A DNA stretch of 64,000 nucleotides from Planctomycetota bacterium (GCA_016209685.1 JACQVQ010000005.1:24655-88654); one strand, 5' to 3'. Counted from the first letter of the stretch, positions 14,036 to 63,896 are shown. Notes: generated from the sequence alone by a model not told the origin. A program made the numbers and translations.

Positions 14036-14713
14036 TTAACCCACTTTATAGGTACTAACACAACTGTCATCGCCGTAGGCAATGCACTTCTGTCTCTCAT
14101 GGGCGATGGCGGAATTGAGCCCTTTCCCAAAGCCTGAGAGCCAGGCGGTTATGATGTCGCACATCGCCTTTGGGGGTGCTTCTGTCTCTTGCCAGTATCT
14201 GCCATGGATACAGACCGTATGGTCCCATACGATGTGCTGATTGTTCTCGTCCAGTACCTGGGCGCCACGGTCGCAGGGCATTCCATCGCAGAAGTTATCC
14301 AGGAGGAGTTCAAAGGCCCTACCTGGGTTAACCCCATTCTGGCCAAGGTTCTTCTCCTTTGCGGCCTGCTGGGCACAGCTTACGCCGTGGTTGTAAGCCG
14401 CCTTACATGCCACCTCCTTGGCCTCATCGCCGTATTTTTTATAGAAGGCCGCAACGGTGGCTGCCTCACGTGTCTCCACGTCGTCTATAAGTCCCTGTAT
14501 CCCGGCATGGATGGGCTTATCCTCCAGAAGTTCCTCTAGCGGCTTAACATCTGACTGGGCAGGGGGATACTTCTTATAGACCACTTGTAGAATTGCGTCA
14601 GCATCTTTGCCATACTTTTGCTTAAGGGCCTCTACAATGGCCTTCTCTCTAGCTTCAGCGATCTTTATCTTCTTATGCATCCAGTGATGGATGGGCCCTA
14701 AAACTAAACTCAC
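14036..14713 (-). CDS. Hypothetical protein. The C-terminal Cys pattern resembles ATC-hydrolase-like (PF14196-type) domains.
   Basis: 225 aa. The C-terminal CIHGRYWQE...MCDIITAWLSGFGKGLN...KCIAYGDDSCVSTYKV resembles that family from memory. Not verified. Confidence 0.4.
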   Translation of the reverse strand: MSLVLGPIHHWMHKKIKIAEAREKAIVEALKQKYGKDADAILQVVYKKYPPAQSDVKPLEELLEDKPIHAGIQGLIDDVETREAATVAAFYKKYGDEAKEVACKAAYNHGVSCAQQAAKEKNLGQNGVNPGRAFELLLDNFCDGMPCDRGAQVLDENNQHIVWDHTVCIHGRYWQETEAPPKAMCDIITAWLSGFGKGLNSAIAHERQKCIAYGDDSCVSTYKVG

Positions 14714-14773
14714 TGTCTTTACTCCTTTCCTTTGTAACTTATCAGCCTGCCTCAGGCAGGCCGTTATATTATG

Positions 14774-14801
14774 GTAGGGGCACGGCGCGCCGTGCCCCTA
14801 C
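14774..14801. repeat. GTAGGGGCACGGCG|CGCCGTGCCCCTAC perfect 28-bp palindrome
   Basis: Exact palindrome, identical to 63869-63896. Confidence 0.95.
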
Positions 14802-14820
14802 TGCCTTTAGTTTGGGAAGG

Positions 14821-15051
14821 TTAGACGGCCTCCACACACTCTACGTCAGGGATCTCTTCCTTGAGCCTTGCCTCTACTCCCATCTTCAAGGTGATGAGGG
14901 AACTGGGGCACGTACCGCAGGCCCCTTTCAGCCTGACCTTCACTACCCCGCCGTTTACCCCGACCAACTCTATATCTCCGCCATCTGCCTGCAAGGCAGG
15001 TCTTATCTCATTCAGGATTTCCTTCACTTTCTCTGGATTCAGGTTGGGCAT
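14821..15051 (-). CDS. NifU C-terminal-domain (Nfu-type) Fe-S cluster carrier
   Basis: 76 aa. [15 protein letters not shown] and GACGTCPSS motifs. Confidence 0.9.
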
Positions 15052-15140
15052 TTGTGCTCCTCCTTCTACTAAAAAAAATTCTCACCCTATTATTTATAAG
15101 GTACGGGTCCATCCACCCGCCTCAGGCGGGCAATTGGGGT

Positions 15141-15359
15141 TTAACCCTTCTTTTTTGCTATGGCCTCGTTAATTTCCTTTACTATTACCTCAGGGTCCAT
15201 GTTGTGCATCATGGCCCCGAAGGCAAGGTCTTCCATCTTGGAACCAGGACAGGTAAAACAGCCTGAACCAAAATACTTCTTTACCACTGACTCAGCTTCC
15301 GGGTAATTCTTGATTATTTCCCCGATGCTGGTCTTCTTCGTTATCTTGATTTCTGACAT
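15141..15359 (-). CDS. DUF1858 / hybrid-cluster-protein-associated redox disulfide domain protein
   Basis: 72 aa. IGEIIKNYPEAESVVKKYFGSGCFTCPGSKMEDL. Confidence 0.75.
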   Translation of the reverse strand: MSEIKITKKTSIGEIIKNYPEAESVVKKYFGSGCFTCPGSKMEDLAFGAMMHNMDPEVIVKEINEAIAKKKG

Positions 15360-15379
15360 AACGGTTTCCTCGTTACCTC

Positions 15380-15772
15380 CTAATGACTGCTCTCGGCAGG
15401 GGCTGTTCCTATACTCGCCATGATGTTGGCCACAAACATCCCCACTGCCGCCACTTGCAAAACGGCAAAGAGTTTGGTCAGTCCATCAGCATATCCCCAT
15501 ACGCCACACAATCCAACAAGGCTGATATTGGCCAGCCAGAAGTGCCACTTCATCAGGCCGGGATAGGCCACAGGGTTACCGCTAAACCTGGGGAGGATGT
15601 GATACCCCACCCCATAAATCATCATGGACATCCAGCCTAACAAATTAAAGTGCACGTGGGCAAACTTTAACAATGGTTCATCTTTGGTAAACAACTGAAG
15701 CAACCCCAGACATACTCCAATAAAAAAATATAAAAGACTTGCACGGACAAAATTCTTCGCAATTGGGTCCAC
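15380..15772 (-). CDS. Small 4-TM membrane protein with heme-copper-oxidase-subunit-I-like His motifs
   Basis: 130 aa. GTG start with a GGAGGAGGGG SD. Four hydrophobic helices. HVHFNLLGWMSMMIYGVGYHILPRF resembles HCO/cbb3 subunit I helices. Confidence 0.6.
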   Translation of the reverse strand: MDPIAKNFVRASLLYFFIGVCLGLLQLFTKDEPLLKFAHVHFNLLGWMSMMIYGVGYHILPRFSGNPVAYPGLMKWHFWLANISLVGLCGVWGYADGLTKLFAVLQVAAVGMFVANIMASIGTAPAESSH

Positions 15773-15904: not shown

Positions 15905-15932
15905 GTAGGGGTTTGAATAATCAAACCCTTAC
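15905..15932. repeat. GTAGGGGTTTGA-ataa-TCAAACCCTTAC palindrome overlapping the Mo-oxidoreductase stop
   Basis: 10-bp arms. The last codons (VRV*) of the upstream gene lie in the right arm. Confidence 0.8.
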
Positions 15933-17891
15933 AATCTTTTCCACCTGGACATAGGTGGAGTTATAGGCGGCGTTGCCTCCGAAGGCCTGGACCTCGTCGG
16001 GTATTAGGGCACTCACCCCTTTCCCACCACAGAGCTTGGGCCAGAGCCCCCCGTAGGCCAGTACCACCCCCTTTTTTATGTCTCTCGTTAGTTTGGCCTT
16101 CATGGTCAACGTGTCCAGGGCACTCCTCAACCTCACCAGTTCCCCGTCTTCTATCTCCTTCTCCCTGGCCTCCTCCTCATTGATGAGCACTATCGGCTCT
16201 ATCTCCTCCTGCCAGACGTTATGGAACTGACTGCGGGTGATGTGCATGAGGTTGGCGGTTATGAGCTGGAACGGATAGCCATTCCTTTCTTCCTCGTAAT
16301 AGCCGGAGAGGGGTGGCAGACCGGCCTTTTCGGCCAGTTGAGAATAAAATTCTATCTTGCCCGAGGGCGTAGGGTAAACGTCCCTGGGCCTGGCCTTCAT
16401 CTTTAAGAAACCCTCCCGTTCAAGCTCCTCCAGTGTAAAGTCCACGGCCTTACTCCTGGCAAGGAACTCCTTGACTACCTCCCGCTCAGGAGGGAATATC
16501 TCGTCGGACTTTAGACCCATAGCCCCAGTTAACTCCCTGAAGACCTGATAATTAGGCTTCGCCTCCCCAAGGGGTCCAATCGCCTTCTGGTTTATGGACA
16601 TATAATTGTGGTAATAGCAGACATGGACATCAAAGGACTCAAGGAAGCTGGTAGCCGGTAGTACAATATCGGCATAGCTACAGGTGTCGTTTAAAAACAG
16701 GTCGTGCGCCACCACAAAGAGGTCTTCCCTCTCCAGCCCCTTTCTTACCAGGTTCTGGTTGGGGAGGTTTACCATGGGGTTGGTATTGAAGACGAAGAGA
16801 AATTTTATCTCGTCCGTCTGCAGTACCCTCCCCAGTTGTGCCATGTTGTAGGTCTTCCTACCTACTGTAGGGGCAGGTTTCAAACCTGCCCCTACCCCCT
16901 GGAGTAACCCCAGGTCTAGCTCCCTATCAGTATTGCTGTAATGCACTCTGTACCCCCCTACCAGGGGTGGCAGTAGGGCAATGGTCCTTACTGCCTCCCC
17001 CCCGTAGAGGTGTTTCTGCATGCCGAAGCCCAGGTGTATGAAGTGGGGCCTCAGACGGTACATGTCCTCGGCCAATCCTACTATATCCTCCCTGGGGAGT
17101 TCCGTAATCCTGGAGACCCTCTCAAGGTCAAACTCCTTCACCACTTCCAGGAATTTATCAAAACCATAGGCATACTTTTCAACGTGCTCACGTTCGTAAA
17201 GTCCTTTAGATATTAGGTAATTTGCAACCCCCAGGGCGAGGGCGCCATCGGTATTGGGCCTTATGGGGAGGTGTTTTCCAAGGTCGCAGGTCTTCAGGGG
17301 GTCTATGAGGTAGAATTTTGCCCCTTTGTGGACGGCCCGTTTGACGAGGTTGTAACCATGGAGATTAGACCACGGACCGTTCAGACCCCAGAAGATGATG
17401 AGTCTGGAGTCCTGTATCTCCTCCGGGTCAATGCCCCAGTAGCCTCCGTAGACGTATTGTAGGGCAGTCCTGCCTGCCAGGGAACAGACGGTAGGGGAGC
17501 ACTTGCTGGTACCCAGGACGTTGAAGAACCGTTGGGAGAACTGCTTGTTGAGGAGTCCCATGTGGCCGAAGTAATCAAAGGGCAGGATGGCCCCAGGGCC
17601 ATGCTTTGCCTGTACTTCTTCTATACGGCGTGCAATCTCACTGTAGGCCTCCTCCCAGGATATTCTCTTAAAATCATCCTTTCCCTTCTTTCCCACCCTT
17701 TTAAGGGGGTAAAATAGCCTCTGGGGTGAGTACACAAACTTCAGGGCATTCTGTATCTTCCAGCAGAGGAAGCCCTGGGTCATCGGGTGACTGGGGTTAC
17801 CCTGCAGCTTAACCGCCCTGCCACCCTCAGTGGTGGTGAGGATGGAACAGGTATCGTAGCAGTCCCTGGGACATGTATTGTATGTAGTCAT
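15921..17891 (-). CDS. Molybdopterin-dependent oxidoreductase (MopB/DMSO-reductase superfamily), cytoplasmic, substrate unknown
   Basis: Fe-S Cys cluster CPRDCYDTCS near the N-terminus and no Tat motif. The start is moved to MTTYNTCP (17891) because the upstream 14 codons are just the 17897-17924 palindrome. Neither start has a clear SD. Confidence 0.85.
   Translation of the reverse strand: MTTYNTCPRDCYDTCSILTTTEGGRAVKLQGNPSHPMTQGFLCWKIQNALKFVYSPQRLFYPLKRVGKKGKDDFKRISWEEAYSEIARRIEEVQAKHGPGAILPFDYFGHMGLLNKQFSQRFFNVLGTSKCSPTVCSLAGRTALQYVYGGYWGIDPEEIQDSRLIIFWGLNGPWSNLHGYNLVKRAVHKGAKFYLIDPLKTCDLGKHLPIRPNTDGALALGVANYLISKGLYEREHVEKYAYGFDKFLEVVKEFDLERVSRITELPREDIVGLAEDMYRLRPHFIHLGFGMQKHLYGGEAVRTIALLPPLVGGYRVHYSNTDRELDLGLLQGVGAGLKPAPTVGRKTYNMAQLGRVLQTDEIKFLFVFNTNPMVNLPNQNLVRKGLEREDLFVVAHDLFLNDTCSYADIVLPATSFLESFDVHVCYYHNYMSINQKAIGPLGEAKPNYQVFRELTGAMGLKSDEIFPPEREVVKEFLARSKAVDFTLEELEREGFLKMKARPRDVYPTPSGKIEFYSQLAEKAGLPPLSGYYEEERNGYPFQLITANLMHITRSQFHNVWQEEIEPIVLINEEEAREKEIEDGELVRLRSALDTLTMKAKLTRDIKKGVVLAYGGLWPKLCGGKGVSALIPDEVQAFGGNAAYNSTYVQVEKIVRV
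16867..16895. repeat. GTAGGGGCAGGTTT-c-AAACCTGCCCCTAC palindrome inside the Mo-oxidoreductase CDS
   Basis: Perfect 14-bp arms. Translated in frame as ..QGVGAGLKPAPTVG.. Confidence 0.95.
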
Positions 17892-17896
17892 AGGCA

Positions 17897-17924
17897 GTAG
17901 GGGCACGTTGCAACGTGCCCCTAC
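17897..17924. repeat. GTAGGGGCACGTTG|CAACGTGCCCCTAC perfect palindrome
   Basis: 28 bp. Same sequence as 42287-42314 (1 mismatch). Confidence 0.95.
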
Positions 17925-17988
17925 AAAAATCATGGTAGCAGAAAGGCGAAAGGGCTGTCAATGTTCGGATACGAGAGAACTCTCTTAT

Positions 17989-18121
17989 TGTCATTCTGAC
18001 CCTGATCCGCCTCAGGCGGAGAAGGGGAAGAATCTCGGAGTAAGATTGGGAAGGGGAAAGAGAAGACGCTACCCCAAGCGTAACAAAGGAACTGAGACCC
18101 TTCGCTACGCTCAGGGTGACA
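17989..18121. repeat. Inverted pair of TGTCA..CTGA...GAATCTC-type units, the left one carrying an internal tccgcctcaggcgga
   Basis: tgtcattctgaccctgatccgcctcaggcggagaaggggaagaatctcgg (17989-18038, with taagattg following to 18046) and gagacccttcgctacgctcagggtgaca (18094-18121). Confidence 0.8.
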
Positions 18122-18134
18122 AGAAGTGAGTGCC

Positions 18135-18197
18135 CTATTTGGAGTCCTTAGGCTTCTTCGGGCACCCGCAGACGCAGATACTCTTCCTGCCAGCCAT
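18135..18197 (-). CDS. 20-aa cysteine-rich micro-ORF (MAGRKSICVCGCPKKPKDSK)
   Basis: Found by hand, below the ORF-track cutoff. ATG preceded by GGAGGTGATAAAA. 94 nt downstream of arsR on the same strand. Its ICxCGC motif is shared with the ArsR C-terminus, including the codons tgc ggg tgc. Confidence 0.5.
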   Translation of the reverse strand: MAGRKSICVCGCPKKPKDSK

Positions 18198-18291
18198 TTT
18201 TATCACCTCCTTTCTGGATTACTGTATAGCAGAAACTAGAAAAGTAAATAAGCAACTACTTACATACGTTTTCAAAAAATTGTCTTCCCTT

Positions 18292-18693
18292 TTACCTTAT
18301 TTCTTTAATCCTTTCCCGGACAATCTTAAGCTCATTTCGCAGTTCCTTCTCGTATTTCTTCAATGATTCTAAACCCGACTCATTCAGATTCTTCTCTCTG
18401 AATTTGCCTGTTCCCCTGCACCCGCATGTGCAAATTTCGCTCAATGCCTGGCGGCAGTTTTCCAGAGCTTCTTCATCTATTGAATACGGTATCCAGTATC
18501 CCTTTCTCTCGCTCCTGACCATGCCTGCTTGCCTCAATATCTTCAGATGTTGTGATACAGCGGCAGGTGTTATACCAACCAACTCTGCAATATTTTTTGC
18601 GCCAAGTGGTCCCTTGGATTTTAAGAGGTTAATTATCCTAACCCGTGTCTCCACACCCAGCACTTTAAACATTTCTGAAGGCATAAACCTCAT
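18292..18693 (-). CDS. ArsR/SmtB-family transcriptional regulator with a C-terminal CxCGC motif and a coiled-coil tail
   Basis: 133 aa. wHTH NIAELVGITPAAVSQHLKILRQAGMVRSERKG, then SEICTCGCRGTG, then the heptad-like ESLKKYEKELRNELKIVRERIKEIR. Confidence 0.9.
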   Translation of the reverse strand: MRFMPSEMFKVLGVETRVRIINLLKSKGPLGAKNIAELVGITPAAVSQHLKILRQAGMVRSERKGYWIPYSIDEEALENCRQALSEICTCGCRGTGKFREKNLNESGLESLKKYEKELRNELKIVRERIKEIR

Positions 18694-18732
18694 GTCATCA
18701 AATCCTTTTTAACTATTTTAGTTTTCACTTAA

Positions 18733-18761
18733 ATAGTAAAACAATTTGGTAAAATTGTCAA
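18733..18761 (-). promoter_or_regulatory. Candidate sigma70 promoter of arsR with an overlapping 7-4-7 palindromic operator
   Basis: Minus strand reads TTGACA (18761-18756), a 17-nt spacer, then TACTAT (18738-18733). ACAATTT-tacc-AAATTGT (18741-18758) fills the spacer, as in autoregulated ArsR/SmtB operators. Confidence 0.45.
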
Positions 18762-18817
18762 TAGAATTTTTTAAAGAATTACTCGTAATACAATTGGAGT
18801 AAACAGGGCCAGGCAAA

Positions 18818-19801
18818 CTACCCAAAAACCCTCTTGCCCACCTGTTTCCTTAGGAACATAAAGAGTTCTCGTATCATGAGGTGTTTATCGCTTAGGGCCT
18901 TGAGGTGGAAGGGGAGGACGCAACCGCATCGTGAGCAATCGGCCTGGGGGCCCATCATGCAGGGTTTTTTGACACGTCCCTGGGGGTCAAAGCAGAAGGC
19001 CACCTGGCGGAAGAGGCAGTTACGGGTTATCTCCTGACAGCGGTCGGAACGCATGCTCTCCAGCACCTCTGGTGGTATGACAATAAAATCCCCGTGTCTC
19101 TCCTTCAACCGAAGAAGCACGTCAATGGTCTTGTCCCTAATCTCCCACCCGGGCCAGAGGGAATCGTTCTCTAACCCCCTTACAGGGGTATAAAACTGGA
19201 AGAGACACCCCCTTACCCCTCCCCTCTCGTGCCACTCATCCACGAAGGCCTCCGCCCCCTGGTAGTTCTCCCTGGTAATGACCATGGAGAGTAACACCCT
19301 GAGGTCGGGCCTTACGGCGTTGGCTAGTATCTTGTCGTAAGTGCCTTTGCCCCTCAGACCCTCATGCAGTTCCCTGGGGCCATCCACGGAGACATAGAAA
19401 TTGACGTCTTTCCAATCAGGAAGTTCCATCATGCCGTTGGTAGTCACCATGTTGGATTTAAAATACCCCATGCCCTTCTCTATGAGGCTCTTCCTCAAGA
19501 GAGGCTCTCCGCCTATCCATGAGCACTGGTAGAAGGGGAAGCCCTGCTTCTTTAATTCCTCAAACTTGAGGAGCCACTCCTCGTCGCTAAGCTCCCGCTC
19601 CGCCTCGTAGTCGTGGGCAAAGAAATAACAGTGTCTGCACCGGAGATTGCAACGGTTGGTAACGTCAATGGCGCCGATTGCCCCCTCCGGCTTGCCAAAG
19701 AGGTCAAAGGAGGCAAGGTCGTAGGCCTTGAAGAGGAACTTCGTCCTCTCCTTGCCCAGAATCTGACTGGAGAATTGAAACAGGTTATCTCTTATGGACA
19801 T
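18818..19801 (-). CDS. Radical SAM protein with a C-terminal auxiliary Cys cluster, function unknown
   Basis: CNLRCRHCY (CX3CX2C) and the C-terminal CMMGPQADCSRCGC. The start is moved to MSIRDNL (19801) because the upstream 23 codons are the 19813-19839 palindrome. Confidence 0.8.
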   Translation of the reverse strand: MSIRDNLFQFSSQILGKERTKFLFKAYDLASFDLFGKPEGAIGAIDVTNRCNLRCRHCYFFAHDYEAERELSDEEWLLKFEELKKQGFPFYQCSWIGGEPLLRKSLIEKGMGYFKSNMVTTNGMMELPDWKDVNFYVSVDGPRELHEGLRGKGTYDKILANAVRPDLRVLLSMVITRENYQGAEAFVDEWHERGGVRGCLFQFYTPVRGLENDSLWPGWEIRDKTIDVLLRLKERHGDFIVIPPEVLESMRSDRCQEITRNCLFRQVAFCFDPQGRVKKPCMMGPQADCSRCGCVLPFHLKALSDKHLMIRELFMFLRKQVGKRVFG

Positions 19802-19812
19802 TTCACATCCCT

Positions 19813-19839
19813 GTAGGGGCAGGGTAACCCTGCCCCTAC
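19813..19839. repeat. GTAGGGGCAGGGT-a-ACCCTGCCCCTAC palindrome
   Basis: Perfect 13-bp arms. Confidence 0.95.
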
Positions 19840-19900
19840 ATAAAAAATCAGATTTTCCTAGAAAAAGCAATACAAAAACTAAAGAATACAGAATTCCGTA

Positions 19901-20754: not shown

Positions 20755-21468
20755 ATGAAAAGTAAGTTGGCCGTAGTACTCCTTAGCGGGGGTATGGATA
20801 GCTGTGTGACCACAGCCATTGCCAGACAAGACCACGAGCTTGCCCTACTGCACGCCAACTACGGACAGAAGACCGAGCGGAGGGAACTCAAGGCCTTTAA
20901 TGATATTGCCCAATACTACCTCGTCCCCCCAGGCAGGAGGCTCGTGGTGGATATGCACTACCTGGGGGAGATGGGAGGGTCTAGTCTCACTGACCCTAAA
21001 CTGGATGTGCCGACTGCTGGGCAGACACATAGGTCTGCCCCTACCGCTACCGCAATCCCCTCCACTTACGTCCCCTTCAGGAACACCCACCTACTGGCCT
21101 CAGCAGTATCCTGGGCAGAGGTACTGGGCGCCAGAAAGGTCTTCATAGGGGCGGTAGAGAACGACAACCCCTGTTACCCCGACTGTAGAGAGGTCTACTA
21201 CAAGGCCATCAACCAATTGGTAAGGGTGGGCACCCGTCTGGATTCTCAGATAGTGGTGGAAACCCCCCTATTACATCTCAAGAAATCCCAGATTGTCCAG
21301 AAAGGTATGGCCCTCGGGGCGCCACTCCATCTGAGCTGGTCTTGTTACAAAAATGAAGATAGGGCCTGCGGTACGTGTCAGAGTTGTAGACTGCGGTTGG
21401 GGGCCTTTAAAGAGGCAGGGTACATAGACCCCGTCCCCTATGAGGCGGAAATAGTAGACAGAAAGTAG
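20755..21468 (+). CDS. queC: 7-cyano-7-deazaguanine synthase
   Basis: Start moved to MKSKLAVVLLSGGMDS (PP-loop SGGxDS). C-terminal zinc site CYKNEDRACGTCQSC. Confidence 0.93.
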   Translation: MKSKLAVVLLSGGMDSCVTTAIARQDHELALLHANYGQKTERRELKAFNDIAQYYLVPPGRRLVVDMHYLGEMGGSSLTDPKLDVPTAGQTHRSAPTATAIPSTYVPFRNTHLLASAVSWAEVLGARKVFIGAVENDNPCYPDCREVYYKAINQLVRVGTRLDSQIVVETPLLHLKKSQIVQKGMALGAPLHLSWSCYKNEDRACGTCQSCRLRLGAFKEAGYIDPVPYEAEIVDRK

Positions 21469-21491
21469 GGGCGGGGTTACCCCGCCCCTAC
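21465..21491. repeat. GTAGGGGCGGGGT-t-ACCCCGCCCCTAC palindrome containing the stop codons of both convergent genes
   Basis: The queC TAG is at 21466-21468, in the left arm. The rnc TAA is the complement of 21477-21479, spanning the palindrome centre (t78) and the first right-arm base. Confidence 0.95.
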
Positions 21492-42186: not shown

Positions 42187-42214
42187 GTAGGGGCGTATTG
42201 CAATACGCCCCTAC
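42187..42214. repeat. GTAGGGGCGTATTG|CAATACGCCCCTAC perfect palindrome
   Basis: 28 bp. Confidence 0.95.
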
Positions 42215-45426: not shown

Positions 45427-45491
45427 AGGTCTGGAGTAGGGGGTAGGGAGTAGGAAGTAGGAAGTAGGGGCACGGCACGCCGTGCCCCTAC
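45427..45491. repeat. Single TAGGGAG/TAGGAAG heptad arm fused to the palindrome GTAGGGGCACGGCACGCCGTGCCCCTAC
   Basis: aggtctggagtagggggtagggagtaggaagtaggaa + 45464-45491 (1 central mismatch vs 14774-14801). Confidence 0.9.
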
Positions 45492-63868: not shown

Positions 63869-63896
63869 GTAGGGGCACGGCGCGCCGTGCCCCTAC
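63869..63896. repeat. GTAGGGGCACGGCG|CGCCGTGCCCCTAC perfect palindrome in the tRNA-Arg leader
   Basis: Identical to 14774-14801. Lies between the candidate promoter and the tRNA 5' end. Confidence 0.95.

What the first reader, a model, noticed from the sequence alone, without database searches (positions are those of the whole stretch)
18135..18761. ArsR/SmtB regulator and a downstream 20-aa micro-ORF share an I-C-x-C-G-C motif, a possible minimal metal sensor/ligand pair
The ArsR protein ends its DNA-binding domain with SEICTCGCRGTG and then has a coiled-coil tail.

Ninety-four nt downstream on the same strand, behind the strong SD GGAGGTGATAAAA, is an unannotated ORF encoding MAGRKSICVCGCPKKPKDSK.

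The two Cys motifs share the codons tgc-ggg-tgc, and 14 of 18 nt match in the local alignment. That suggests either a partial duplication or selection for the same ligand chemistry.

ArsR itself has a TTGACA-17-TACTAT promoter whose spacer is a perfect ACAATTT-N4-AAATTGT palindrome, a likely autoregulatory operator.

The SmtB/SmtA (repressor plus metallothionein) paradigm makes a metal- or metalloid-buffering peptide plausible. At 20 aa with a single CxCxC cluster, it would be far smaller than known metallothioneins.

A radical SAM enzyme lies immediately upstream (see next finding).
Basis: partly seen in the sequence, partly recalled or inferred. Interest (0 to 1): 0.6.

Follow-up and report, generated by a model that had tools for sequence, protein, structure and literature searches.

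The report
Conserved ArsR repressor plus tri-cysteine micropeptide
The 20-codon ORF behind this ArsR repressor is a real gene: in dozens of anaerobic bacteria the same repressor is followed by a tiny lysine-rich peptide carrying the repressor's own Cys-x-Cys-Gly-Cys motif, an undescribed pair that most likely senses and then soaks up a thiol-loving metal or metalloid.

Summary

- **Conservation.** A small ORF with a CxCxC motif follows this ArsR subfamily in 74 of 78 informative genome loci, across Planctomycetota, Desulfobacterota and other anaerobes. It nearly always has an ATG start and an extended Shine-Dalgarno (GAAAGGAGGTGAT).
- **Coding signature.** The three Cys are invariant (68/68) while their codons split roughly evenly between TGT and TGC. 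Against the closest relative, the window's peptide shows 8 synonymous-only codon changes and 2 non-synonymous ones.
- **Sensor site.** ArsR C80, C88, C90 and C92 are invariant.
- **Operator.** One copy lies at the arsR promoter. A second lies just before the micro-ORF ribosome-binding site, and is degenerate in this window.
- **Variant peptide.** In seven loci a ~66-aa protein homologous to the ArsR C-terminal tail replaces the peptide.
- **Neighbours.** Flanking genes vary. The radical SAM gene is not part of the module.

No Pfam or NCBIfam family, solved structure or paper describes the pair. The best reading is an autoregulated sensor plus ligand-buffering or chaperone peptide for a thiophilic metal(loid). 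Cu(I) and As(III) are the leading candidates, and the ligand is untested.

The parts
18756..18761 (-). -35 hexamer TTGACA of the arsR promoter
   Evidence: CTTGACA preceded by an A-tract is conserved in nearly all 78 upstream regions.
18733..18738 (-). -10 hexamer TACTAT, 17-nt spacer
   Evidence: Relatives carry TATAtT-like hexamers at the same place, abutting the operator.
18741..18758 (-).
   Evidence: Present in the window. The spacer is variable in relatives, so nothing supports it as the operator.
18709..18732 (-). O1: family-conserved inverted repeat TTAAGT-N12-ACTTAA. The window reads TTAAGTGAAAACTAAAATAGTTAA (1 mismatch). It starts directly after the -10.
   Evidence: Found 33-49 nt before the arsR ATG in 72 of 78 loci, against 17 other hits in 550 kb.
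18292..18693 (-). arsR: ArsR/SmtB-family winged-helix repressor, 133 aa
   Evidence: Pfam HTH_5 51.3 bits (cut-off 22) and NCBIfam NF033788 81.3 bits (cut-off 55). 2864 homologues, the best 120 at 80-100% identity.
18418..18456 (-). Codons for C80 (in helix alpha5) to C92: the only four Cys of the protein, C80-x7-C88-T-C90-G-C92. Proposed sensory site.
   Evidence: All four are invariant in 18 aligned homologues. They lie at the end of alpha5 and in the following low-confidence loop.
18298..18381 (-). C-terminal helix (residues 105-132), coiled-coil-like tail
   Evidence: AlphaFold2 places a helix at 105-132. The region from the CTCGC motif (residue 87) to the C-terminus is homologous to the free-standing 'type B' small proteins: hhalign probability 96%, E 1.5e-9.
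18244..18263 (-). Degenerate remnant of the second operator O2 (GTAAGTAGTTGCTTATTTAC). The right half is deleted relative to the closest relative.
   Evidence: O2 is intact in 74 of 79 loci, 17-28 nt after the arsR stop. The deletion shows in the alignment with L019.
18202..18214 (-). Extended Shine-Dalgarno GAAAGGAGGTGAT
   Evidence: GGAGGTGA in 60 of 75 pairs and the full 13-mer in 35 of 75.
18135..18197 (-). Micro-ORF, 20 aa: MAGRKSICVCGCPKKPKDSK. A short member of the 'type A' CxCGC, Lys-rich peptide family.
   Evidence: Profile hits elsewhere are named only 'hypothetical protein' and carry no Pfam domain.
18071..18117 (-). 20-bp imperfect hairpin after the micro-ORF, followed by a pyrimidine-rich tract. 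Possible terminator of the arsR-micro-ORF unit.
   Evidence: RNA fold of 18040-18300(-), z = -5.1; stem located. Function is inferred only.

Best explanation
This is a self-contained, autoregulated two-gene module.

1. The ArsR/SmtB repressor binds the inverted repeat TTAAGT-N12-ACTTAA. O1 overlaps the start of its own strong promoter. In most relatives a second copy, O2, sits directly in front of the small gene's ribosome-binding site.
2. The repressor's only candidate sensory site is the invariant C-terminal C88-x-C90-G-C92 triad, with C80 on helix alpha5.
3. A thiophilic ligand binding there releases the repressor. Cu(I) and As(III)/Sb(III) are the leading candidates; Cd, Pb, Hg and Zn are possible.
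4. arsR and the micro-ORF are then transcribed. The micro-ORF is translated efficiently from its extended SD into a Lys-rich, probably disordered peptide. Its only conserved feature is the same CxCGC triad.
5. The peptide binds the same ligand as a buffer or chaperone. That lowers the free ligand and closes a negative-feedback loop.

**Shown:** the gene pair, its coding selection, the motif sharing and the paired operators (by conservation). **Inferred:** DNA binding, ligand identity and ligand binding by the peptide.
For: - The pair is present in 74 of 78 informative loci from several phyla, with variable flanking genes, so the two genes form the unit.
- The peptide is under protein-level purifying selection. 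Cys is 68/68 at all three positions with mixed TGT/TGC codons, and Gly uses all four codons.
- Window against L019: 8 synonymous-only and 2 non-synonymous codon differences, and similarity collapses right after the stop codon.
- ArsR C80, C88, C90 and C92 are invariant. The protein has no other Cys and a single His, so the classical alpha3 and alpha5 sites are absent.
- O1 occurs in 72 of 78 loci and O2 in 74 of 79, against 17 background hits in 550 kb.
- Some relatives carry 2-3 tandem CGCGC units (L045, L048, L068, L071). That is expected for a stoichiometric binder.
- A peptide found by profile search alone also lies directly behind a 136-aa HTH_5 ArsR.
- A CopD-like membrane protein is the commonest next gene (11 of 73). 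In L005 it sits directly behind O2 and the SD in place of the peptide.
- A C-x-C-x-C motif binds As(III) in DISC1 (PMC10773898).
Against: - No experiment or expression data exists for any member.
- Most peptides have only three Cys, far fewer than any known metallothionein.
- No efflux pump, arsenic gene or P-type ATPase is a recurrent neighbour. The ligand cannot be named from context.
- Neighbours include thiol and sulfur-handling genes (DsbD-thioredoxin, rhodanese, TusA, AhpC/TSA), which also fit a redox or sulfane-sulfur signal.
- The conserved Lys-rich tail has no explanation.
- In this window O2 is degenerate.
Confidence: 0.5

Rival explanations
1. The small protein is a regulatory partner of the repressor: an anti-repressor, co-sensor or ligand donor, comparable to CopZ feeding CopY. 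It would form a mixed complex with the ArsR C-terminal module. The link would be a shared metal or cluster bridged by the two CxCGC motifs and, in type B, a heteromeric coiled coil.
For: - Type B small proteins are homologous to the ArsR tail, Cys motif plus helix (hhalign probability 96%, E 1.5e-9, 50 columns).
- They occupy exactly the position of the peptide, behind the same SD.
- O2 gives the small gene its own ArsR checkpoint.
Against: - Type A, which makes up 67 of the 74 pairs and includes the window, has no helix. It shares only 9 aligned columns with the tail.
- Tandem expansion of the CGCGC unit fits capacity better than a 1:1 regulatory contact.
- The hhalign profiles are shallow and coiled-coil rich.
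Confidence: 0.2
2. The pair senses and handles a non-metal thiol stress: sulfane sulfur or polysulfide, disulfide or oxidative stress, or an Fe-S cluster. The CxC cysteines would act as redox-active or persulfide-carrying thiols, and the peptide as a gene-encoded low-molecular-weight thiol.
For: - Recurrent though minor neighbours are DsbD_TM-thioredoxin fusions, rhodanese, TusA, TauE, AhpC/TSA and class-V aminotransferase (cysteine-desulfurase-like) genes.
- Hosts are sulfidic-habitat anaerobes.
- From general knowledge, some ArsR-family members (BigR, SqrR) sense sulfur species through Cys pairs.
Against: - No single sulfur gene is found in more than 3-6 loci.
- The Cys positions differ from BigR/SqrR. 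The BigR model scores 27 bits against a cut-off of 155.
- Three contiguous alternating Cys is a classical S3 metal(loid) geometry.
Confidence: 0.15
3. The micro-ORF is a Cys-rich leader peptide. Its translation would report cysteine or Cys-tRNA supply and attenuate downstream genes, as described for polycysteine short ORFs in mycobacteria.
For: - A weak, sub-threshold match of a type A peptide to NCBIfam NF042936, the Ms4527A Cys-rich leader peptide (E 0.13, 11.9 bits against a cut-off of 45).
- The phenomenon exists in mycobacteria (bioRxiv 10.1101/834739).
Against: - The next gene is convergent in 26 of 71 loci and otherwise highly variable.
- The ORF is the last gene of the unit, not the first.
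- It has a very strong SD rather than being leaderless.
- The Lys-rich tail and the Gly and Pro positions are conserved at the amino-acid level.
Confidence: 0.05
4. The peptide is a RiPP precursor modified by the adjacent radical SAM enzyme.
For: - A radical SAM gene lies directly upstream in the window, with weak sub-threshold similarity to peptide maturases.
- The closest relative, L019, has a B12-radical SAM gene downstream.
Against: - Radical SAM genes are the nearest upstream gene in 2 of 71 loci. Downstream only L019's B12-radical SAM gene was noted, and no radical SAM family is among the leading downstream families.
- The window's enzyme has no homologue in any of the 80 loci.
- arsR has its own promoter between the two genes.
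Confidence: 0.03

Closest known systems
SmtB/SmtA and BxmR/BmtA (cyanobacterial ArsR-family repressor plus metallothionein)
   Same: An ArsR/SmtB repressor controls an adjacent small Cys-rich metal-binding protein. The pair is self-contained, with the operator at the promoter.
   Different: The peptide is not homologous to SmtA/BmtA (no Pfam hit). It has one CxCGC triad in 20-50 aa instead of about 9 Cys plus His in a folded zinc-finger-like domain. The genes are co-directional with two operators rather than divergent. The sensor uses a C-terminal CxCxC site instead of the alpha3N or alpha5 sites.
CopY/CopZ of Enterococcus hirae (winged-helix repressor with a C-terminal CxCx4CxC motif, plus a small Cu(I) chaperone in the same operon)
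   Same: A repressor with a C-terminal CxC-type thiolate site, and a small thiolate protein encoded in the same operon that handles the same ion (from general knowledge).
   Different: CopY belongs to the BlaI/MecI family and CopZ is a 69-aa HMA-fold protein. Neither family matches here. No CopA/CopB ATPase is linked.
AfArsR-type ArsR (Acidithiobacillus ferrooxidans, PDB 6J05): As(III) S3 site formed by three C-terminal Cys
   Same: An ArsR-family repressor whose three sensory Cys lie after the dimerisation helix rather than in alpha3. An S3 triad suits As(III)/Sb(III).
   Different: The motif differs (CC-x5-C against C-x-C-G-C plus C80). Similarity to 6J05 is weak and confined to the winged helix (E 2.6e-4). 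There is no coiled-coil tail in AfArsR and no ars genes here.
DUF5320 (PF17253), uncharacterised small proteins of anaerobes with a C-terminal coiled coil
   Same: The type B small proteins, and through them the ArsR tail, resemble DUF5320. Two database relatives carry that label. The Pfam match covers the Cys and helix region.
   Different: The match is below threshold (16.1 bits against 27). DUF5320 has no known function, so it explains nothing.
Mycobacterial polycysteine leader ORFs (Ms4527A family)
   Same: Very short Cys-rich ORFs conserved within operons.
   Different: Those are leaderless first ORFs that attenuate downstream genes. This one is SD-led, comes last in its unit and has variable or convergent downstream genes.

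Membership tests
ArsR/SmtB metalloregulators | Winged helix-turn-helix of the HTH_5 / NF033788 type scoring above the curated cut-offs | tested here: met
   HTH_5 51.3 bits against 22; NF033788 81.3 bits against 55. PDB relatives are ArsR-family repressors including NmtR, CzrA and SmtB.
ArsR/SmtB metalloregulators | One of the characterised sensory sites: alpha3 CVC, alpha3N, or alpha5 Asp/His/His/Glu | tested here: not met
   The protein has no Cys before residue 80 and one His (H49, in the recognition helix). The sensory site must be of another type.
ArsR/SmtB metalloregulators | Imperfect inverted-repeat operator overlapping its own promoter (autoregulation) | tested here: inconclusive
   TTAAGT-N12-ACTTAA is conserved after the -10 in 72 of 78 loci. 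Binding itself cannot be tested with these tools.
AfArsR-type (C-terminal S3) arsenic sensors | Three conserved Cys after alpha5 that bind As(III) | tested here: inconclusive
   Three invariant Cys directly follow alpha5. Spacing differs, no ars genes are linked, and ligand binding is not testable.
Bacterial metallothioneins (SmtA/BmtA, MymT) | Sequence membership in a known metallothionein family | tested here: not met
   No Pfam or NCBIfam hit for the 20-aa peptide or for the 33- and 53-aa relatives.
Bacterial metallothioneins (SmtA/BmtA, MymT) | Many Cys (typically 6 or more) forming a metal-thiolate cluster | tested here: not met
   Three Cys in 60 of 68 type A peptides. Only 8 have 4-9.
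Bacterial metallothioneins (SmtA/BmtA, MymT) | Metal binding and metal-induced expression | not testable with these tools
   Needs biochemistry and expression data.
Cys-rich leader peptides (NF042936, Ms4527A family) | HMM score above cut-off, and position as the first ORF upstream of the regulated genes | tested here: not met
   11.9 bits against 45. The ORF follows arsR, and the next gene is convergent in 26 of 71 loci.
DUF5320 (PF17253), for the ArsR tail and type B proteins | Pfam score above the gathering threshold | tested here: inconclusive
   16.1 bits against 27 for a type B protein. One relative carries precomputed PF17253 and one is named DUF5320 by NCBI.
RiPP precursor with radical SAM maturase | Conserved co-location of precursor and maturase | tested here: not met
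   Radical SAM is the nearest upstream gene in 2 of 71 loci. Downstream only L019's B12-radical SAM gene was noted, and no radical SAM family is among the leading downstream families. No homologue of the window's enzyme exists in the 80 loci.
CopY/CopZ repressor-chaperone pair | BlaI/MecI-type repressor and HMA-domain chaperone | tested here: not met
   Neither domain appears among the Pfam hits. The resemblance is functional only.

The most novel reading that the evidence does not exclude
The module is a new regulatory and chemical principle. A repressor and its only dedicated target share one minimal ligand-binding element (CxCGC). The target would be either a ribosomally made 'mini-phytochelatin' or low-molecular-weight thiol of anaerobes (type A), or a free-standing decoy of the sensor's own C-terminal module (type B). 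Such a decoy would compete for or hand over the ligand and set the induction threshold. The coiled-coil tail plus two operators about 477 bp apart would let the repressor loop the DNA over its own gene.
Probability: 0.25. Interest if true: 0.8.

Novelty: new variant of a known kind. Interest (0 to 1): 0.66.

Why it matters
- **A new small-protein family.** It would add an unannotated family of 20-50 aa peptides. These would be among the shortest gene-encoded thiolate ligands known, and they are widespread in environmentally important anaerobes: anammox-lineage Planctomycetota, sulfate reducers and syntrophs.
- **A new ArsR sensory architecture.** A C-terminal CxCxC site, a coiled-coil tail and dual operators define an ArsR subtype not described before.
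- **Directly testable.** The module has two genes and about 700 bp. A synthetic peptide, one purified repressor and a 24-bp operator would settle the ligand and the mechanism.
- **A possible tool.** It could yield a compact metal(loid) biosensor or chelator.
- **An annotation gap.** Gene callers usually miss the peptide or call it 'hypothetical', and sometimes mis-start the repressor.

Tried and rejected
- **Family searches for the peptide.** Pfam and NCBIfam gave nothing above threshold for the window peptide or its longer relatives.
- **First profile search.** It was repeated with a 40-aa first row.
- **Solved structures.** The PDB sequence search with the C-terminal 78 residues found nothing significant. 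The full protein matches only generic ArsR winged helices.
- **RNA families.** Rfam on 17800-18900 returned one chance-level hit.
- **Plasmids.** PLSDB holds no close relative.
- **Literature.** Seven searches found no description of the pair, of DUF5320 function or of TsoR.
- **Helical phasing of O1-O2.** Spacing is 465-485 bp. The Rayleigh test is nominally significant but uninformative, because the range is narrow and the sequences are related.
- **ArsR-tail search of 1.8 billion representatives.** It returned only 26 hits. The short ones inspected are ArsR-type C-terminal modules or fragments. One apparently free-standing 60-aa 'tail' (P0214) proved to be a mis-called start of a complete ArsR.
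- **Rejected readings.** The spacer palindrome as operator (not conserved). The radical SAM or molybdopterin oxidoreductase as partners. A recent DNA duplication behind the shared motif (codons vary freely).

Full report
**Observation**

- A 133-aa ORF at 18292-18693(-) reads ...ALENCRQALSEICTCGCRGTGKF....
- A 94-nt spacer follows, then GAAAGGAGGTGAT (18202-18214).
- The ORF ATG...TAG at 18135-18197 encodes MAGRKSICVCGCPKKPKDSK.
- The two Cys stretches (18418-18435 and 18162-18179) match at 14 of 18 nt.
- A TTGACA-17-TACTAT promoter lies at 18761..18733.
- Its spacer contains ACAATTT-N4-AAATTGT (18741-18758).
- A radical SAM ORF lies upstream at 18818-19870.
- A molybdopterin oxidoreductase lies downstream at 15921-17933.

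**The regulator**

The 133-aa protein is an ArsR/SmtB repressor. HTH_5 scores 51.3 bits against a cut-off of 22, and NF033788 scores 81.3 against 55.

It has only four Cys (C80, C88, C90, C92) and one His, so the characterised alpha3, alpha3N and alpha5 sites are absent.

A database search found 2864 homologues. The best 120 are 80-100% identical although named from different phyla. The exact match is from Candidatus Tripitaka californicus; others come from Ca. Wujingus, Ca. Wunengus, Humimicrobiaceae and Aminicenantia. In an 18-sequence alignment all four Cys, the following G-T-G-x-F and much of the tail are invariant.

AlphaFold2 (mean pLDDT 70) gives the winged helix and alpha5 at residues 74-87 with C80 inside it. 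The CTCGC motif falls in a low-confidence loop, followed by a long helix at 105-132. No solved structure resembles this C-terminal module.

**The micro-ORF is a conserved gene**

A scan of one genome per species returned 80 loci with this ArsR subfamily at 62-85% identity. Most are Desulfobacterota MAGs. Others are labelled Planctomycetota (including Brocadiaceae, Scalindua and Ca. Subterrananammoxibius), Nitrospinota, Chlorobium, Spirochaetota, Deferribacteres, Aminicenantia and further groups.

Two loci end before the relevant region. Of the other 78, 74 have a small ORF with CxCxC directly downstream on the same strand. It starts with ATG in 73 of 75 pairs, counting the window. It lies 61-126 nt after the arsR stop in most. 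GGAGGTGA precedes it in 60 of 75 pairs and the full GAAAGGAGGTGAT in 35 of 75. From general knowledge of the 16S rRNA 3' end, this is an unusually long anti-SD complement and implies strong ribosome recruitment.

There are two forms.
- **Type A** (67 loci plus the window) has the consensus MAxKKxxCGCGCxPLKQ...K-rich...KKSK. Median length is 33 aa, 28% of residues are Lys and median net charge is +6. There are three Cys in 60 of 68 peptides. The window's 20-aa version recurs in Ca. Subterrananammoxibius as MANRKRICVCGCPKKPKDSK (L019). Several relatives have 2-3 tandem CGCGC units (L045, L048, L068, L071).
- **Type B** (7 loci) is a ~66-aa protein, MCQPRGSQ...GCxCGCCGCGCG.FFRRFISAKEEQERLEEYRDQLKKELAGVEERIxELK.

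The coding signature is clear. The three Cys are 68/68 conserved with TGT and TGC used about equally, and the Gly positions use all four codons.

Between the window and L019 the ORF differs at 8 synonymous-only codons and 2 non-synonymous codons. Nucleotide similarity collapses immediately after the stop codon, and upstream only the operator remnant and the SD align.

A profile of type A peptides retrieved 89 database proteins, all unnamed or 'hypothetical' with no Pfam domain. One of them (P0194) again lies directly after a 136-aa HTH_5 protein in each of the four contexts shown.

**Operators**

Aligning 120 nt upstream of arsR in 78 loci shows an A-tract, CTTGACA, a variable 17-nt spacer and a TATAtT-like -10. 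Immediately after comes a conserved inverted repeat, TTAAGT-N12-ACTTAA, with consensus TTAAGTaaTTgCTTAAatACTTAA.

The same element recurs between the arsR stop and the micro-ORF SD. Allowing up to 2 mismatches in the hexamers, it is present at the promoter (O1) in 72 of 78 loci. It is present downstream of arsR (O2) in 74 of 79. Only 17 other hits occur in 550 kb. O2 most commonly ends 20 nt before the micro-ORF ATG (28 loci). O1-O2 spacing is 465-485 bp in all but one locus.

In the window O1 is at 18709-18732 with 1 mismatch. O2 survives only as GTAAGTAGTTGCTTATTTAC (18244-18263), with its right half deleted relative to L019.

I therefore assign the operator role to TTAAGT-N12-ACTTAA. This rests on conservation, not on a binding test.

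I could not resolve whether O2 is a roadblock, a looping partner or the operator of a second weak promoter.

**Relationship between sensor tail and small protein**

Profile-profile comparison aligns the ArsR C-terminus (CTCGC...helix) with type B over 50 columns (probability 96%, E 1.5e-9). The pairwise BLASTP E-value is 5e-4. Type B is thus a free-standing relative of the sensor's own C-terminal module.

Type A shares only the CxCGC nonapeptide with either.

Type B is distantly DUF5320-like. The Pfam score is 16.1 bits against 27, and two of its 694 database relatives carry that label. DUF5320 is uncharacterised.

**Context**

Flanking genes vary.
- The nearest downstream gene is CopD-like in 11 of 73 loci and an acyl-CoA dehydrogenase in 8.
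- A DsbD_TM-thioredoxin fusion occurs in 3, methyltransferases in 3 and TauE in 2.
- No family exceeds 3 of 71 upstream. Radical SAM genes account for 2.
- Rhodanese, TusA, AhpC/TSA, MerR and cysteine-desulfurase-like genes occur sporadically.
- The next gene after the small ORF is convergent in 26 of 71 loci.
- The window's radical SAM and molybdopterin enzymes have no homologue in any locus.
- In L005 the peptide is missing and a CopD-like gene sits directly behind O2 and the SD.
- No arsenic gene, P-type ATPase or efflux pump is among the leading neighbour families.
- The module is not on PLSDB plasmids.

**Mechanism**

The evidence fits a two-gene autoregulated sensor-effector unit. ArsR represses at O1, and usually also at O2. 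A thiophilic ligand binds the invariant C-terminal Cys site and relieves repression. The strongly translated peptide then binds the same ligand through the same triad.

Four points favour a stoichiometric buffer or chaperone role (confidence 0.5):
- tandem expansion of the CGCGC unit in some relatives;
- independence from neighbouring genes;
- the SmtB/SmtA and CopY/CopZ precedents (general knowledge);
- documented As(III) binding by a C-x-C-x-C motif in DISC1 (PMC10773898).

The ligand is open. The CopD linkage points to Cu(I) and the S3 geometry to As(III)/Sb(III). Sulfur-handling neighbours keep a sulfane-sulfur or redox signal alive.

Rivals are a regulatory partner or decoy (0.2), redox, persulfide or Fe-S chemistry (0.15), a Cys-sensing leader peptide (0.05) and a RiPP precursor (0.03).

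**Novelty**

No family model, structure or paper found here describes the peptide, the ArsR subtype or the dual-operator layout.

It works like known repressor plus metallothionein or chaperone pairs. It is not a member of those families, so I rate it a new variant of a known kind.

Noticed in passing
window 14774-14801, 16867-16895, 17897-17924, 19813-19839, 21465-21491, 42187-42214, 45464-45491, 63869-63896: Eight copies of a REP-like perfect palindrome, GTAGGGGC-N(11-13)-GCCCCTAC, against 0 expected in shuffles. Two of them bracket the segment radical SAM - arsR - micro-ORF.
   Followed up: partly
window 17891-17961 and 19801-19870: The listed starts of the molybdopterin oxidoreductase ORF (17933) and the radical SAM ORF (19870, TTG) run through REP-like hairpins. 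For the oxidoreductase, the start also runs through a promoter-like TTGACA-18-TACCAT (17961..17932). The true starts are probably internal Met codons, about 17891 and about 19801.
   Followed up: no
window 14036-15772 (- strand): A run of small genes downstream of the oxidoreductase: a 130-aa membrane protein with sub-threshold COX1 and weak NnrS similarity, a DUF1858 (hybrid-cluster-protein-associated redox disulfide) protein, a NifU-like protein, and a 225-aa protein with a borderline ATC_hydrolase match. They may form an NO or Fe-S-repair group.
   Followed up: no
window 18071-18117 (- strand): A 20-bp imperfect hairpin directly after the micro-ORF (fold z-score -5.1 for the 261-nt region). 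It is single-copy in the window and may be a terminator.
   Followed up: partly
L005 4400-5050: In an Aminicenantia MAG the peptide gene is absent. A CopD-like membrane protein starts directly behind the conserved O2 operator and SD, as if it had replaced the peptide as the regulated gene.
   Followed up: partly
L086 404-616; L085 2250-2769: One 820-nt GC-rich contig (L086) encodes an apparently stand-alone copy of the ArsR C-terminal module (70 aa) with no winged helix upstream. A similar-looking 60-aa database protein (P0214) is really a mis-called start inside a complete GTG-initiated ArsR that carries the full O1/O2/peptide layout.
   Followed up: yes
(P0001-P0120; L001-L080): The ArsR is 80-86% identical between MAGs assigned to different phyla (Planctomycetota, Atribacterota, Acidobacteriota, Desulfobacterota). 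That suggests horizontal transfer of the module, or binning errors.
   Followed up: no
L004, L006, L044, L057, L063, L070 and others: Additional ArsR-family paralogues cluster next to the module in several loci. One is an ArsR-like protein with a rhodanese-like C-terminal region (by eye, no family search run), directly downstream in a Nitrospinota MAG (L044 4845-5537).
   Followed up: no
L002, L007, L013, L027, L028, L033, L037, L043 (about 90 nt after the peptide gene): An acyl-CoA dehydrogenase is the next same-strand gene in 8-10 loci at a near-constant distance of about 90 nt. Its relation to the module is unexplained.
   Followed up: no
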